Of a stretch of DNA of 64,000 nt, positions 39,101 through 42,100 are shown piece by piece (position 1 is the first letter of the stretch; each line of letters starts with the position of its first letter). This DNA is from Escherichia coli (GTDB lineage Bacteria > Pseudomonadota > Gammaproteobacteria > Enterobacterales > Enterobacteriaceae). A program made the position numbers. The DNA lies in NCBI RefSeq assembly GCF_013315695.1, contig NZ_CP054353.1; one strand, given 5' to 3'.

Positions 39101-42100
39101 GCAACTATTGCGGCGCGACAGTCTGCTACCGGCACTAAAACCGATACGCCGATTCAAAAAGTGCCACAGTCTATTTCTGTTGTGACCGCCGAAGAGATGG
39201 CGCTGCATCAGCCGAAGTCGGTAAAAGAAGCTCTTAGCTACACTCCTGGCGTTGCCGTGGGAACTCGTGGCGCATCCAACACTTACGATTACCTGATCAT
39301 CCGCGGATTCGCCGCTGACGGCCAAAGCCAGAACAACTATCTGAATGGCCTGAAGATGCAGGGCAACTTCTATAACGATGCAGTTATCGATCCGTATATG
39401 CTGGAGCGCGCTGAAATCATGCGTGGTCCGGTATCCGTGCTGTACGGGAAAAGCAGCCCTGGCGGCCTGTTGAACATGGTCAGCAAGCGCCCGACTACAG
39501 AACCGCTGAAAGAAATTCAGTTTAAAGCCGGTACTGACAGCCTGTTCCAGACTGGTTTTGACTTCAGTGATGCGCTGGATGATGACGGCGTTTACTCTTA
39601 TCGTCTGACTGGTATTGCGCGTTCAGCCAATGCTCAGCAGAAGGGGGCAGAAGAGCAGCGTTATGCTATTGCTCCAGCGTTCACCTGGCGCCCGGATGAT
39701 AAAACCAATTTCACTTTCCTTTCTTACTTCCAGAACGAACCGGAAACCGGTTATTACGGCTGGTTGCCGAAAGAGGGAACCGTTGAGCCGCTGCCGAACG
39801 GTAAGCGTCTGCCGACAGACTTTAATGAAGGGGCGAAGAACAACACCTATTCTCGTAATGAGAAGATGGTGGGCTACAGCTTCGATCACGAATTTAACGA
39901 CACCTTTACTGTGCGTCAGAACCTGCGCTTTGCGCAAAATAAAGTCTCGCAAAAGAGCGTATATGGCTACGGCATGTGCTCGGATCCGCTGTATACCAAA
40001 GACGACGATGCACTCAAGGCGAGTCCATGTTTAAGTATCCCGCAGTCAGAATGGAATCATACACTGACTCGTCAGTACGTTATCGATAATGAGAAATTAG
40101 AAAACTTCTCTGTTGATACTCAGTTGCAAAGTAAATTCGCAACCGGCTCGGTTGAACACACTCTGCTGACCGGCGTTGACTTTATGCGTATGCGTAATGA
40201 TATTGACTCCTGGTTCGGTTACGCCGGTTCCGTTGCACCGTCTGATATCTATAATTTAGACCGTAGTGACTTTGATTTTGGTGCTCACCCGGATCCGTCT
40301 GGCCCATACCGCGTTTTGCTTAAACAGAAACAAACCGGTCTGTATGTTCAGGATCAGGCGCAGTGGGATAAGGTGCTGGTGACTCTGGGTGGTCGCTATG
40401 ACTGGGCGGAACAGTCATCTTTCAACCGTGATTACGGTAATAAATCCGATCGTGATGACAAACAGTTCACCTGGCGTGGTGGCGTAAACTACCTGTTCGA
40501 CAACGGGGTAACGCCTTACTTCAGCTACAGTGAGTCGTTTGAGCCAGCATCTTTGACAGATGCAAACGGTGATCTGTTTGCACCTTCGAAAGGCAAACAG
40601 TATGAAGTTGGTGTGAAATATGTGCCGGAAGATCGCCCAATTGTGCTGACGGGCGCACTGTATCAGCTTACCAAAACCAACAACCTGATGGCGGATCCGA
40701 ATAATCCCAATTTCTCGATTGAAGGCGGTGAGATTCGCGCTCGTGGTGTAGAACTGGAAGCAAAAGCGGCGCTGTCGGCGAGTGTTAACGTAGTAGGTTC
40801 TTATACTTACACCGATGCGGAATACACCACCGACACTACCTATAAAGGCAATACGCCTGCACAGGTGCCAAAACACATGGCTTCGCTGTGGGCTGACTAT
40901 ACCTTCTTTGACGGTCCGCTTTCAGGTCTGACGCTGGGCACCGGTGGTCGTTATACTGGCTCCAGCTATGGTGATCCGGCTAACTCCTTTAAAGTGGGAA
41001 GTTATACGGTCGTGGATGCGTTAGTGCGTTATGATCTGGCGCGAGTCGGCATGGCTGGCTCCAACGTGGCGCTGCATGTCAACAACCTGTTCGATCGTGA
41101 ATACGTCGCCAGCTGCTTTAACACCTATGGCTGCTTCTGGGGCGCAGAACGTCAGGTCGTTGCAACCGCAACCTTCCGTTTCTAATTTCTCTTTTGGGGC
41201 ACGGATTTCCGTGCCCGTTTCACAAGTTGGCTGTTATGCAGGAATACACGAATCATTCCGATACCACTTTTGCACTGCGTAATATCTCCTTTCGTGTGCC
41301 CGGGCGCACGCTTTTGCATCCGCTGTCGTTAACCTTTCCTGCCGGGAAAGTGACCGGTCTGATTGGTCACAACGGTTCTGGTAAATCCACTCTGCTCAAA
41401 ATGCTTGGTCGTCACCAGCCACCGTCGGAAGGGGAGATTCTCCTTGATGCCCAGCAGCTGGAAAGCTGGAGCAGCAAAGCGTTTGCCCGCAAAGTGGCTT
41501 ATTTGCCGCAGCAGCTTCCTCCGGCAGAAGGGATGACGGTGCGTGAACTGGTGGCGATTGGTCGTTACCCGTGGCATGGCGCACTAGGGCGCTTTGGTGC
41601 GGCAGATCGCGAAAAGGTCGAGGAAGCTATCTCGCTGGTTGGCTTAAAACCGCTGGCGCATCGGCTGGTCGATAGTCTCTCTGGCGGCGAACGTCAGCGG
41701 GCGTGGATCGCCATGCTGGTGGCGCAGGATAGCCGTTGTCTGTTGCTCGACGAACCGACCTCGGCGCTGGATATCGCCCACCAGGTTGATGTGCTGGCGC
41801 TGGTGCATCGTTTAAGTCAGGAGCGTGGCCTGACGGTCATTGCCGTGCTGCACGATATCAATATGGCTGCGCGTTACTGTGATTATCTGGTCGCCCTGCG
41901 CGGCGGTGAAATGATTGCTCAGGGAACGCCTGCGGAAATTATGCGCGGCGAAACCCTCGAAATGATTTATGGCATCCCGATGGGTATTTTGCCGCATCCG
42001 GCGGGTGCTGCACCTGTGAGTTTTGTTTATTGATGAGCGGCTTACCTCTTATTTCGCGCCGTCGACTGTTAACGGCGATGGCGCTTTCTCCGTTGTTATG

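What the first reader, a model, noticed from the sequence alone, without database searches (positions are those of the whole stretch)
39983..40760. fhuA allele with several diverged blocks, possibly in surface loops, compared with the K-12 sequence as I recall it
The FhuA N-terminus (signal, plug, TonB box region) and C-terminal barrel strands match what I remember of K-12. Several internal blocks differ: ...CSDPLYTKDDDALKASPCLSIPQSEWNHTLTRQYVIDNEKLENF..., ...DIDSWFGYAGSVAPSDIYNLDRSDFDFGAHPDPSGPYRVLLKQKQTGLYVQ..., ...AEQSSFNRDYGNKSDRDDKQ..., ...PASLTDANGDLFAPS..., ...LTGALYQLTKTNNLMADPNNPNFSIEGG.... Total length is 752 aa against 747 in K-12 by my recollection. If these blocks correspond to external loops, which I have not mapped, they are the sites used by T1/T5/phi80-type phages, colicin M, microcin J25 and albomycin, and the mosaic pattern would fit diversifying selection or recombination at a phage receptor. 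This is a memory-based comparison without alignment.
Basis: partly seen in the sequence, partly recalled or inferred. Interest (0 to 1): 0.45.

Follow-up and report, generated by a model that had tools for sequence, protein, structure and literature searches.

The report
Known loop-variant allele of fhuA
The window carries a common, already catalogued E. coli variant of the FhuA iron-siderophore and phage receptor, whose surface loops L4-L8 come from an old, recombining allele lineage while the transport core matches K-12; it is a textbook case, not a new one.

Summary
fhuA (38927..41185, 752 aa) matches K-12 at both ends. It differs sharply inside one block, 39933-40764: 27.4% nt mismatch against 3.3% in the rest of mrcB-fhuB (chi2 825; 0/200 permutations). 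On a confident AlphaFold2 model (pLDDT 91; TM 0.92-0.99 to FhuA crystal structures), 74 of 89 differing residues are extracellular (odds ratio 9.1, p=4e-18). They lie in L4 (with a 6-residue insertion inside the conserved disulfide), L5, L6, L7 and L8. The TonB box, ferrichrome pocket and both disulfides are unchanged. Published phage-contact residues are replaced (Y325K, E554N, F557N). Synonymous sites in the block are saturated, so this is an old allele lineage moved by intragenic recombination, not recent mutation. Loop types are shared across genera. In 5,426 complete E. coli genomes the cassette falls into discrete classes: 181 genomes at >=99% and none at 95-99%. Carriers differ by 1-4% in flanking genes but <=0.12% in the cassette. 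All of this is already published (Wang et al. 2018, clusters E1-E4; later "mosaic evolution" HVR catalogues, which list a near-identical L4 type). The exact protein is WP_000124395.1, seen on >=1000 contigs. Phage and colicin phenotypes remain untested. Low interest.

The parts
38927..41185 (+). [quoted passage not shown]
   Evidence: ORF. 100% DNA match to annotated fhuA of E. coli MS 21-1. PDB FhuA chains E = 0. AF2 model pLDDT 91.3, with TM 0.92/0.99 to 1by5.
38708..38926 (+). mrcB-fhuA intergenic region containing the fhuA promoter region, nearly identical to K-12
   Evidence: Direct comparison. The last ~100 nt upstream of the ATG differ from K-12 at one base.
38927..39025 (+). signal peptide (aa 1-33), identical to K-12
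   Evidence: 0/33 differences.
39026..39505 (+). plug domain (aa 34-193) including the TonB box; 4 substitutions vs K-12
   Evidence: 4/160. TonB box EDTITVT identical.
39232..39739 (+). secondary diverged block, mostly synonymous (10.7% nt vs K-12; 0.2-0.6% among carriers)
39740..39932 (+). K-12-like island inside the gene (about 1% nt difference; includes L3 and the ferrichrome-binding Y244/W246 region)
   Evidence: (dS <= 0.06 for aa 271-330).
39933..40764 (+). core diverged cassette (27.4% nt vs K-12) covering L4 to L8
   Evidence: Max chi-square breakpoints. Population classes.
39977..40060 (+). loop L4 (aa 351-378), C351...C368 disulfide loop with a 6-aa insertion relative to K-12; PLYTKDDDALKASPCLSIPQSEW; K-12 Y325 replaced by K
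   Evidence: (L4 region 32/60 differ). 221-nt run identical to Escherichia sp. E1V33 at 39917-40137.
40217..40297 (+). loop L5 (aa 431-457)
   Evidence: L5 region 19/52 differ.
40409..40456 (+). loop L6 hairpin tip (variable aa 495-510)
   Evidence: 9/20 differ.
40544..40585 (+). loop L7 (aa 540-553); K-12 D509 replaced by N
   Evidence: (8/18 differ).
40694..40720 (+). loop L8 tip (aa 590-598), DPNNPNF in place of K-12 DPEGSFF (E554N, G555N, S556P, F557N)
   Evidence: The motif was seen only in carriers of this allele among all fetched loci.
41236..44902 (+). fhuC, fhuD, fhuB (rest of the operon), ordinary E. coli-level divergence
   Evidence: Annotation transferred from MS 21-1. 2.4-4.1% nt vs K-12.

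Best explanation
This is an intact, functional-looking fhuA gene carrying one of several discrete, old allele classes that coexist in E. coli.

The transport machinery is held constant by purifying selection. That covers the signal peptide, TonB box, plug, transmembrane strands, periplasmic turns, ferrichrome pocket and both disulfides. The extracellular parts of loops L4-L8 belong to a lineage that diverged from the K-12 type at least as long ago as the enterobacterial genera diverged.

The cassette sits in an otherwise E. coli-typical gene because of intragenic homologous recombination, with breakpoints near 39232, 39740, 39933 and 40764. It has since moved between E. coli backgrounds and, for L4, between Escherichia species.

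L4, L5, L7 and L8 are the surfaces bound by T5 pb5 and needed by T1, phi80 and SO1-like phages and colicin M. The likely effect is therefore changed sensitivity to FhuA-dependent phages and bacteriocins with ferrichrome uptake kept, and the likely maintaining force is frequency-dependent selection by those agents.

Shown here: loop location, conservation of the core, saturated dS, breakpoints, discrete population classes, flank incongruence, and sharing across genera. Inferred: phenotype and selective agent.
For: - Loop location: 74/89 differing residues are extracellular (OR 9.1, p = 4e-18). Within aa 336-615 the OR is 8.9 (p = 1.3e-10). Per loop region the counts are L4 32/60, L5 19/52, L6 9/20, L7 8/18, L8 5/24, and zero in L1, L3, L9, L10 and L11.
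- Fold kept: TM 0.90-0.92 by query and 0.97-0.99 by target, rmsd 1.1-2.2 A to FhuA structures.
- Core conserved: TonB box, R81/G99/Q100/F115/Y116/Y244/W246/Y313/Y315/F391/F693, C318/C329 and C692/C698.
- Age: pS is 0.46-0.82 across aa 331-600. In aa 511-540 there are 13 synonymous and 0 nonsynonymous differences. The core differs from K-12 by 25.7% nt, against 2.3-4.1% in mrcB and fhuCDB and against 13-17% between E. coli and Salmonella in the conserved ends of fhuA.
- Breakpoints: chi2 825, 0/200 permutations.
- Discrete classes in 5,426 genomes: 181 at >=99%, 0 at 95-99%, 266 at 90-95%, 624 at 80-90%, 4354 at 60-80%.
- Carriers differ 1.1-4.4% in flanks but 0-0.12% in the core.
- Sharing across genera: the window L4 segment is ~80% nt to Citrobacter and Klebsiella indica but 64% to K-12. 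The K-12 L4 segment is 90% nt / 97% aa to Enterobacter asburiae and 84% nt to Salmonella arizonae.
- A 221-nt run is identical to Escherichia sp. E1V33 in a 6.9% divergent background.
- Contact residues are replaced: Y325K, D509N, E554N, F557N. Their roles are described in PMC10373560 and PMC9586334.
- The published description matches: bioRxiv 10.1101/320069 and PMC12175518.
Against: - No phenotype was measured, so changed phage or colicin sensitivity is inference.
- Pairwise dN/dS never exceeds about 0.3 where it can be computed, so selection for change is not demonstrated by that test. Saturation of dS makes the test weak.
- The loop/transmembrane boundary uses a 10-residue rule on a predicted model, not crystal coordinates.
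- The ferrichrome-pocket residue list is from memory, and one recalled position (702) did not correspond to an aromatic residue.
- Phylogroups of the carriers were not typed. 'Distinct backgrounds' rests on about 9 kb of flank per strain in a region that is itself recombinogenic.
Confidence: 0.85

Rival explanations
1. Recent positive selection by point mutation within the E. coli lineage produced the loop differences (the older reading of fhuA as a 'positively selected gene').
For: Differences are concentrated in ligand-binding loops. Earlier genome scans reported fhuA as positively selected (cited).
Against: Synonymous sites are saturated across the whole block, including strands with no amino-acid change (aa 511-540: Sd 13, Nd 0). 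Breakpoints are sharp. The same loop types occur in other genera. There are no intermediates at 95-99% identity in 5,426 genomes.
Confidence: 0.03
2. The alleles are old, and the loops differ simply because loops are weakly constrained (neutral drift plus occasional recombination). No phage- or colicin-driven balancing selection is involved.
For: dN/dS is below 1 everywhere it can be computed. Loops are the least constrained parts of TonB-dependent transporters generally. No phenotype data exist for this allele.
Against: - Allele classes are discrete, with very low diversity within a class (0-0.12%) despite 1-4% in flanks. This suggests recent spread of a favoured allele rather than drift.
- The same few loop types persist across genera.
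- Variation avoids L3 and L11, which bind ferrichrome, and targets L4, L5 and L8, which bind phage proteins (PMC9586334).
Confidence: 0.1
3. Recent replacement of the whole gene by horizontal transfer from another genus such as Citrobacter.
For: Overall protein identity to several Citrobacter FhuAs (89-91%) is about the same as to K-12 (89%).
Against: The 5' 300 nt and 3' 390 nt are E. coli-typical (0.3% and 1.8% from K-12). The best non-Escherichia match in the core is only 76-80% nt. Synteny is unchanged. The pattern is intragenic mosaic, not whole-gene replacement, and no sampled genus is a recent donor.
Confidence: 0.02

Closest known systems
E. coli FhuA sequence clusters E1-E4 and 'mosaic evolution' of fhuA (Wang et al. 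2018, bioRxiv 10.1101/320069 = Infect Immun 86:e00573-18)
   Same: - The fhuA tree is incongruent with fhuCDB and housekeeping genes.
- Clusters are discrete, and K-12 is E1.
- Indel and substitution hotspots lie at the apexes of L3, L4, L5, L6, L7 and L10.
- Cork, strands and TonB box are conserved.
- Clusters are shared between genera and explained by local recombination.

All of these are reproduced here.
   Different: The window allele's cluster label could not be read because the figures are not held. By its indel pattern (peptides present at the L4 and L5 indel sites but not homologous to K-12, and no L6 or L7 insertions) it fits E2. This is an inference. Within that group it is a sub-variant, with a 23-residue L4 and a distinctive L8.
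FhuA HVR sequence-type catalogue (PMC12175518, Dataset S1; 7 HVRs typed in 3,104 genomes)
   Same: HVR3 corresponds to L4. The listed type HVR3_1_0, PLYTKDQEALKASPCLSIPQSQW, matches the window L4 at 20/23 residues and matches strain CUVET18-565 exactly.
   Different: The window's exact L4 string (PLYTKDDDALKASPCLSIPQSEW) and its L8 string (NNPNF) were not found in the supplement text that is held. The FhuA sheet of the 3,104-genome table was truncated in the held copy, so absence there means little.
K-12 FhuA crystal and cryo-EM structures (1BY3/1BY5/2FCP; 8A8C/8B14 with T5 pb5; 8A60 with Llp; 4CU4 with MccJ25)
   Same: 87% identity. The AF2 model superposes at TM 0.97-0.99 (target-normalised) and rmsd 1.1-2.2 A. 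Plug, pocket and disulfides are the same.
   Different: L4 is 6 residues longer. L4-L8 surfaces are substituted, including Y325K and F557N. These two residues sit at the lumen entrance and shift on T5 binding (PMC10373560). EL4, EL5 and EL8 carry most pb5 hydrogen bonds (PMC9586334).
Mosaic surface-loop variation in other phage-receptor outer-membrane proteins (OmpA, OmpC, OmpF, LamB; bioRxiv 10.1101/2021.09.21.461324)
   Same: Conserved barrel, hypervariable extracellular loops with a limited number of types, and shuffling by local recombination.
   Different: FhuA is a 22-strand TonB-dependent transporter with a plug. Its variable region spans five consecutive loops that here behave largely as one cassette.

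Membership tests
FhuA (TonB-dependent ferrichrome transporter) | Chromosomal position: first gene of fhuACDB, downstream of mrcB | tested here: met
   ORF order mrcB-fhuA-fhuC-fhuD-fhuB. Identical annotated locus in MS 21-1 and in K-12.
FhuA (TonB-dependent ferrichrome transporter) | Plug domain plus 22-strand beta-barrel fold | tested here: met
   AF2 pLDDT 91.3, pTM 0.90, 22 barrel strands. Foldseek best hits are FhuA structures, TM 0.90-0.92 / 0.97-0.99. Pfam PF07715 + PF00593 precomputed.
FhuA (TonB-dependent ferrichrome transporter) | TonB box and ferrichrome-pocket residues conserved | tested here: met
   TonB box identical. R81, G99, Q100, F115, Y116, Y244, W246, Y313, Y315, F391 and F693 are identical to K-12. 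The residue list was recalled from the 1998 structure papers, not retrieved.
FhuA (TonB-dependent ferrichrome transporter) | Transports ferrichrome/albomycin in a TonB-dependent way | not testable with these tools
   Needs growth-promotion or uptake assays.
fhuA 'mosaic evolution' allele classes (Wang et al. 2018) | Amino-acid differences concentrated at extracellular loops, with cork, strands and periplasmic turns conserved | tested here: met
   Extracellular 74/295 against 15/424 in the rest of the mature protein, OR 9.1, p = 4e-18. Within the diverged segment OR 8.9.
fhuA 'mosaic evolution' allele classes (Wang et al. 2018) | Intragenic recombination: sharp breakpoints and gene/flank incongruence | tested here: met
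   Max chi-square 825, 0/200 permutations. dS is saturated only inside the block. Carriers differ 1.1-4.4% in flanks and 0-0.12% in the core.
fhuA 'mosaic evolution' allele classes (Wang et al. 2018) | Limited number of discrete types in the population | tested here: met
   Identity bands of the core cassette in 5,426 genomes: 181 / 0 / 266 / 624 / 4354.
fhuA 'mosaic evolution' allele classes (Wang et al. 2018) | Loop types shared between species and genera | tested here: met
   Per-segment identities. L4 motif families across 67 species loci. 221-nt identical run with Escherichia sp. E1V33.
fhuA 'mosaic evolution' allele classes (Wang et al. 2018) | Assignment to a named cluster (E2) | tested here: inconclusive
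   The text describes E2 as having peptides at Indel 3 (L4) and Indel 4 (L5) without homology to E1, and E3 as having L6/L7 insertions. The window fits E2 and APEC 789 fits E3. The cluster figures and tables are not held.
Genes under positive (diversifying) selection by dN/dS | dN/dS > 1 at loop codons | tested here: inconclusive
   Pairwise Nei-Gojobori in 30-codon windows gives dN/dS <= 0.27 where computable. dS is saturated in the most variable windows. Site models on a recombination-partitioned alignment were not run.
Phage/colicin-resistance receptor variant | Altered sensitivity to T1, T5, phi80, colicin M, MccJ25 or albomycin | not testable with these tools
   Only indirect evidence: contact residues Y325, D509, E554 and F557 are replaced. 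L8 deletion abolishes infection by T5-like/SO1-like phages in K-12 (PMC10373560). Divergent fhuA is associated with MccJ25 resistance in natural isolates (PMC10926693).

The most novel reading that the evidence does not exclude
This particular allele combines a long L4 sub-variant with an L8 tip (DPNNPNF) that lacks the aromatic residue at position 557. That L8 tip was seen in none of 67 other enterobacterial species representatives. The most novel reading not excluded is that this is a recently assembled escape variant: it abolishes recognition by L8/F557-dependent phages (T5-like, SO1-like) while keeping ferrichrome uptake, and it has swept horizontally across several E. coli backgrounds and exchanged its L4 with a cryptic Escherichia species. 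If so, it would be a natural, dated example of receptor-loop cassette exchange driven by phage pressure.
Probability: 0.25. Interest if true: 0.35.

Novelty: already known. Interest (0 to 1): 0.15.

Why it matters
FhuA loop alleles probably set which FhuA-dependent phages (T1, T5, phi80, SO1-like), colicin M, microcin J25 and albomycin can act on a strain. Knowing a strain's allele class is therefore useful for predicting phage host range and choosing phage therapy cocktails. About 3% of complete E. coli genomes carry this exact cassette and about 20% carry related non-K-12 cassettes, so results obtained with K-12 FhuA may not transfer to them. As biology, however, this is a confirmed instance of a published pattern, not a discovery.

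Tried and rejected
- Recent point mutation: rejected because synonymous sites are saturated and breakpoints are sharp.
- Whole-gene foreign replacement: rejected because the gene ends are E. coli-typical and no sampled genus exceeds about 80% nt in the core.
- Artefact or pseudogene: rejected because the ORF is intact, the sequence is identical in many independent complete genomes, and the exact protein is on >=1000 contigs.
- Loop boundaries: I tried to get published ones from Endriss & Braun 2004 (PMC438571), and cluster membership from the journal version of Wang et al. 2018 (PMC6204707). Neither is held. I used the AF2 topology and the boundaries quoted in PMC9586334 and PMC10373560 instead.
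- Experimental data on natural E. coli FhuA alleles and phage host range: two literature searches found nothing specific to this allele. The Salmonella Tequintavirus preprint turned out not to involve FhuA loop differences.
- Exact L4 and L8 strings in the HVR catalogue supplement: no hit, but the relevant sheet is truncated in the held copy.
- The search for homologous proteins returned only near-identical E. coli entries in its top 120, so it said nothing about origin.
- One script printed a large irrelevant stretch because a string search failed. Only its last lines (the intergenic comparisons) were used.
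Full report
**What is there.** The region holds an intact fhuA gene at 38927..41185 on the + strand (752 aa). It lies between mrcB (annotated equivalent 36173..38707) and fhuC, fhuD and fhuB (41236..44902). The gene is 100% identical in DNA to fhuA of E. coli MS 21-1, whose product is WP_000124395.1, 'ferrichrome porin FhuA'. The window's flanks are also essentially identical to that strain, differing by 0-0.05%. 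The exact protein is on record on at least 1000 contigs.

**Checking the observation.** K-12 FhuA is 747 aa. Alignment with the K-12 protein in solved structures and in MG1655 shows near-identity up to about aa 335 and from about aa 616, with clustered differences between. These include a 6-residue insertion between two conserved cysteines.

- At DNA level, mismatches to K-12 per 100 nt rise from a background of 0-8 to 10-59 only inside fhuA.
- A two-breakpoint max-chi-square scan over mrcB..fhuB puts the diverged segment at 39933-40764. There are 222 mismatches in 810 sites inside and 257 in 7899 outside (chi2 825; none of 200 permutations reaches it).

Two corrections apply. The plug carries four substitutions. 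There is also a second, mainly synonymous diverged block at 39232-39739, followed by a K-12-like island at 39740-39932.

**Where the differences fall on the protein.** I predicted the structure from an alignment of 137 homologues. Mean pLDDT is 91.3 and pTM 0.90. The best structural matches are the E. coli FhuA crystal and cryo-EM structures (TM 0.90-0.92 by query length, 0.97-0.99 by target length, rmsd 1.1-2.2 A). The 22 barrel strands give a topology that reproduces published loop positions: L3 at mature residues 242-273, L4 starting at Cys318, EL7 at Glu501-Ser516 and EL8 at Thr546-Glu564 (PMC9586334; PMC10373560).

I counted the ten strand residues nearest the periplasm as transmembrane and the rest of each hairpin as extracellular. 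On that basis, 74 of the 89 positions that differ from K-12 are extracellular:

| Region | Differing / total | % |
|---|---|---|
| Extracellular | 74/295 | 25 |
| Transmembrane strands | 10/216 | 4.6 |
| Plug | 4/160 | 2.5 |
| Periplasmic turns | 1/48 | 2.1 |

- Overall enrichment is OR 9.1, p = 4e-18.
- Restricted to the diverged segment (aa 336-615) the enrichment persists (OR 8.9, p = 1.3e-10).
- By loop region the counts are L4 32/60, L5 19/52, L6 9/20, L7 8/18 and L8 5/24. There are none in L1, L3, L9, L10 or L11.
- The TonB box, the ferrichrome-pocket residues I recalled from the 1998 structure papers (R81, G99, Q100, F115, Y116, Y244, W246, Y313, Y315, F391, F693) and both disulfide pairs are unchanged.
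- Residues highlighted in the phage literature are replaced: Y325K in L4, D509N in L7, and E554N, G555N, S556P and F557N in L8.

T5 pb5 contacts EL4-EL11, with most hydrogen bonds in EL4, EL5 and EL8 (PMC9586334). Replacing DPEGSFF in L8 abolishes infection by SO1-like phages (PMC10373560).

**How old the difference is, and how it got there.** Nei-Gojobori estimates in 30-codon windows show saturated synonymous divergence from K-12 (pS 0.46-0.82) across aa 331-600. They show moderate dS (0.2-0.8) across aa 91-270, and dS <= 0.09 at aa 1-90, 271-330 and 661-752 (0.17 at aa 631-660). In aa 511-540 there are 13 synonymous and no nonsynonymous differences, so saturation is not an alignment artefact. 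The core differs from K-12 by 25.7% nt, against 2.3-4.1% in mrcB, fhuCD and fhuB. That exceeds the 13-17% separating E. coli from Salmonella arizonae in the conserved ends of the same gene. The two loop lineages are therefore at least as old as the enterobacterial genera, and the window gene is an intragenic recombination mosaic. No window gives dN/dS above about 0.3, so this simple test does not demonstrate positive selection. It is also weak when dS is saturated.

**Relatives elsewhere.** A scan of one genome per species and per-segment identities show that loop types cut across genera.

- The window's L4 segment is 100% nt identical to Escherichia sp. E1V33 and about 80% (nt and aa) to Citrobacter youngae and Klebsiella indica, but only 64% nt / 51% aa to K-12.
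- K-12's L4 segment is 94-95% nt to E. whittamii and Escherichia sp. MOD1-EC7003, 90% nt / 97% aa to Enterobacter asburiae, and 84% nt to Salmonella arizonae.
- The window and E1V33 share a 221-nt identical run (39917-40137) in a 6.9% divergent background. This points to recent exchange of the L4 cassette between Escherichia species.
- The long L4 motif family (LYTK...ALK.SPC.SIPQS.W) also occurs in a Citrobacter amalonaticus genome.
- The L8 tip DPNNPNF was found only in carriers of this allele among all fetched loci.

**Population picture.** Of 5,426 complete E. coli genomes, 5,424 have fhuA. For the core cassette, identity to the window falls into discrete bands: 181 genomes (3.3%) at >=99%, none at 95-99%, 266 at 90-95%, 624 at 80-90% and 4,354 at 60-80%. 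The K-12 type is about 75% and the APEC 789 type about 65%. Carriers include SMS-3-5 (phylogroup F from memory, not tested) and isolates from humans, chickens, dogs, a gull, a pangolin and water. Four carriers with different flanks differ from one another by 1.1-2.6% in mrcB, 1.3-2.9% in fhuCD and 1.8-4.4% in fhuB. They differ by only 0-0.12% in the fhuA core and 0.2-0.6% in the secondary block. The allele therefore behaves as a unit shared among backgrounds.

**Comparison with what is known.** This pattern is published.

- Wang et al. (bioRxiv 10.1101/320069; Infect Immun 2018) describe four E. coli FhuA clusters (E1-E4, K-12 in E1) and a fhuA tree incongruent with fhuCDB. They report indel hotspots at the apexes of L3, L4, L5, L6, L7 and L10, a conserved cork, strands and TonB box, clusters shared between genera, and local recombination as the explanation.
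- Follow-up papers name this 'mosaic evolution' and type seven FhuA hypervariable regions across 3,104 genomes.
- Their L4 type HVR3_1_0, PLYTKDQEALKASPCLSIPQSQW, matches the window L4 at 20 of 23 residues. It is exactly the L4 of strain CUVET18-565, a member of the 90-95% class.
- By its indel pattern the window allele fits cluster E2 and APEC 789 fits E3. I could not confirm the labels because the figures are not held.
- Natural fhuA divergence has also been associated with microcin J25 resistance in E. coli and Salmonella isolates (PMC10926693).

**Verdict.** The finding is an instance of a known phenomenon in a common, catalogued allele. What remains unknown is the phenotype of this particular allele. 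The replaced L4 and L8 contact residues predict altered sensitivity to FhuA-dependent phages and bacteriocins with ferrichrome transport retained, but nothing here tests that. Interest is low (0.15). The most novel reading still open is that the unusual L8 tip marks a recently assembled, horizontally spreading phage-escape variant (probability about 0.25).

Noticed in passing
window ~36060-36100 (hrpB-mrcB intergenic): K-12 has about 100 nt of extra repetitive, palindrome-rich sequence (GGTTGGTTTTCTCCCTCTCCCTGTGGGAGAGGG...) between hrpB and mrcB. It is absent from the window and from MS 21-1 (114 mismatch/gap columns in one 100-nt bin).
   Followed up: partly
window 44903-44937 (fhuB-hemL intergenic): K-12 has a 157-nt intergenic region with REP-like palindromes here, while the window has only about 35 nt (142 mismatch/gap columns; sequences).
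   Followed up: partly
L004 (E. coli ZH193, ST131) 877-5781; corresponds to window 38708-38926: This strain has a four-gene chaperone-usher fimbrial operon inserted between mrcB and fhuA. It is absent from the window, K-12 and the other loci examined.
   Followed up: no
window 41194-44902 (fhuCDB) and 36158-38707 (mrcB): Genes flanking fhuA differ by 2-5% nt among E. coli strains, with shifting nearest neighbours. For example, the window's fhuB is 1.6% from ST131 but 4-5% from K-12 and O145:H28. The whole neighbourhood looks recombinogenic, not only fhuA.
   Followed up: partly
window 40694-40720 (L8 tip): The L8 motif DPNNPNF, which lacks the aromatic residue at K-12 position 557, was found only in carriers of this allele. 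The 67 other enterobacterial species loci mostly have xGSFF-like motifs. Its origin is unexplained.
   Followed up: partly
window 39917-40137; L006 (Escherichia sp. E1V33): A 221-nt run is identical between E. coli and a separate Escherichia species that is 6.9% divergent over the surrounding 8 kb. This implies recent interspecies exchange of the L4 cassette.
   Followed up: partly
E. coli genome hits: Three to five fhuA-like matches lie on plasmids. One chromosome (strain 0H18, H35) has an ISAs1-family transposase interrupting fhuA, a natural knockout. About 560 genomes carry a very divergent class (APEC 789 type, 729 aa, 77% nt).
   Followed up: no
L020 (Escherichia sp. MOD1-EC7003) 3001-5241: The fhuA translation contains an internal stop codon (2 stops counted, including the terminal one). 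It is possibly a pseudogene or a sequencing error.
   Followed up: no
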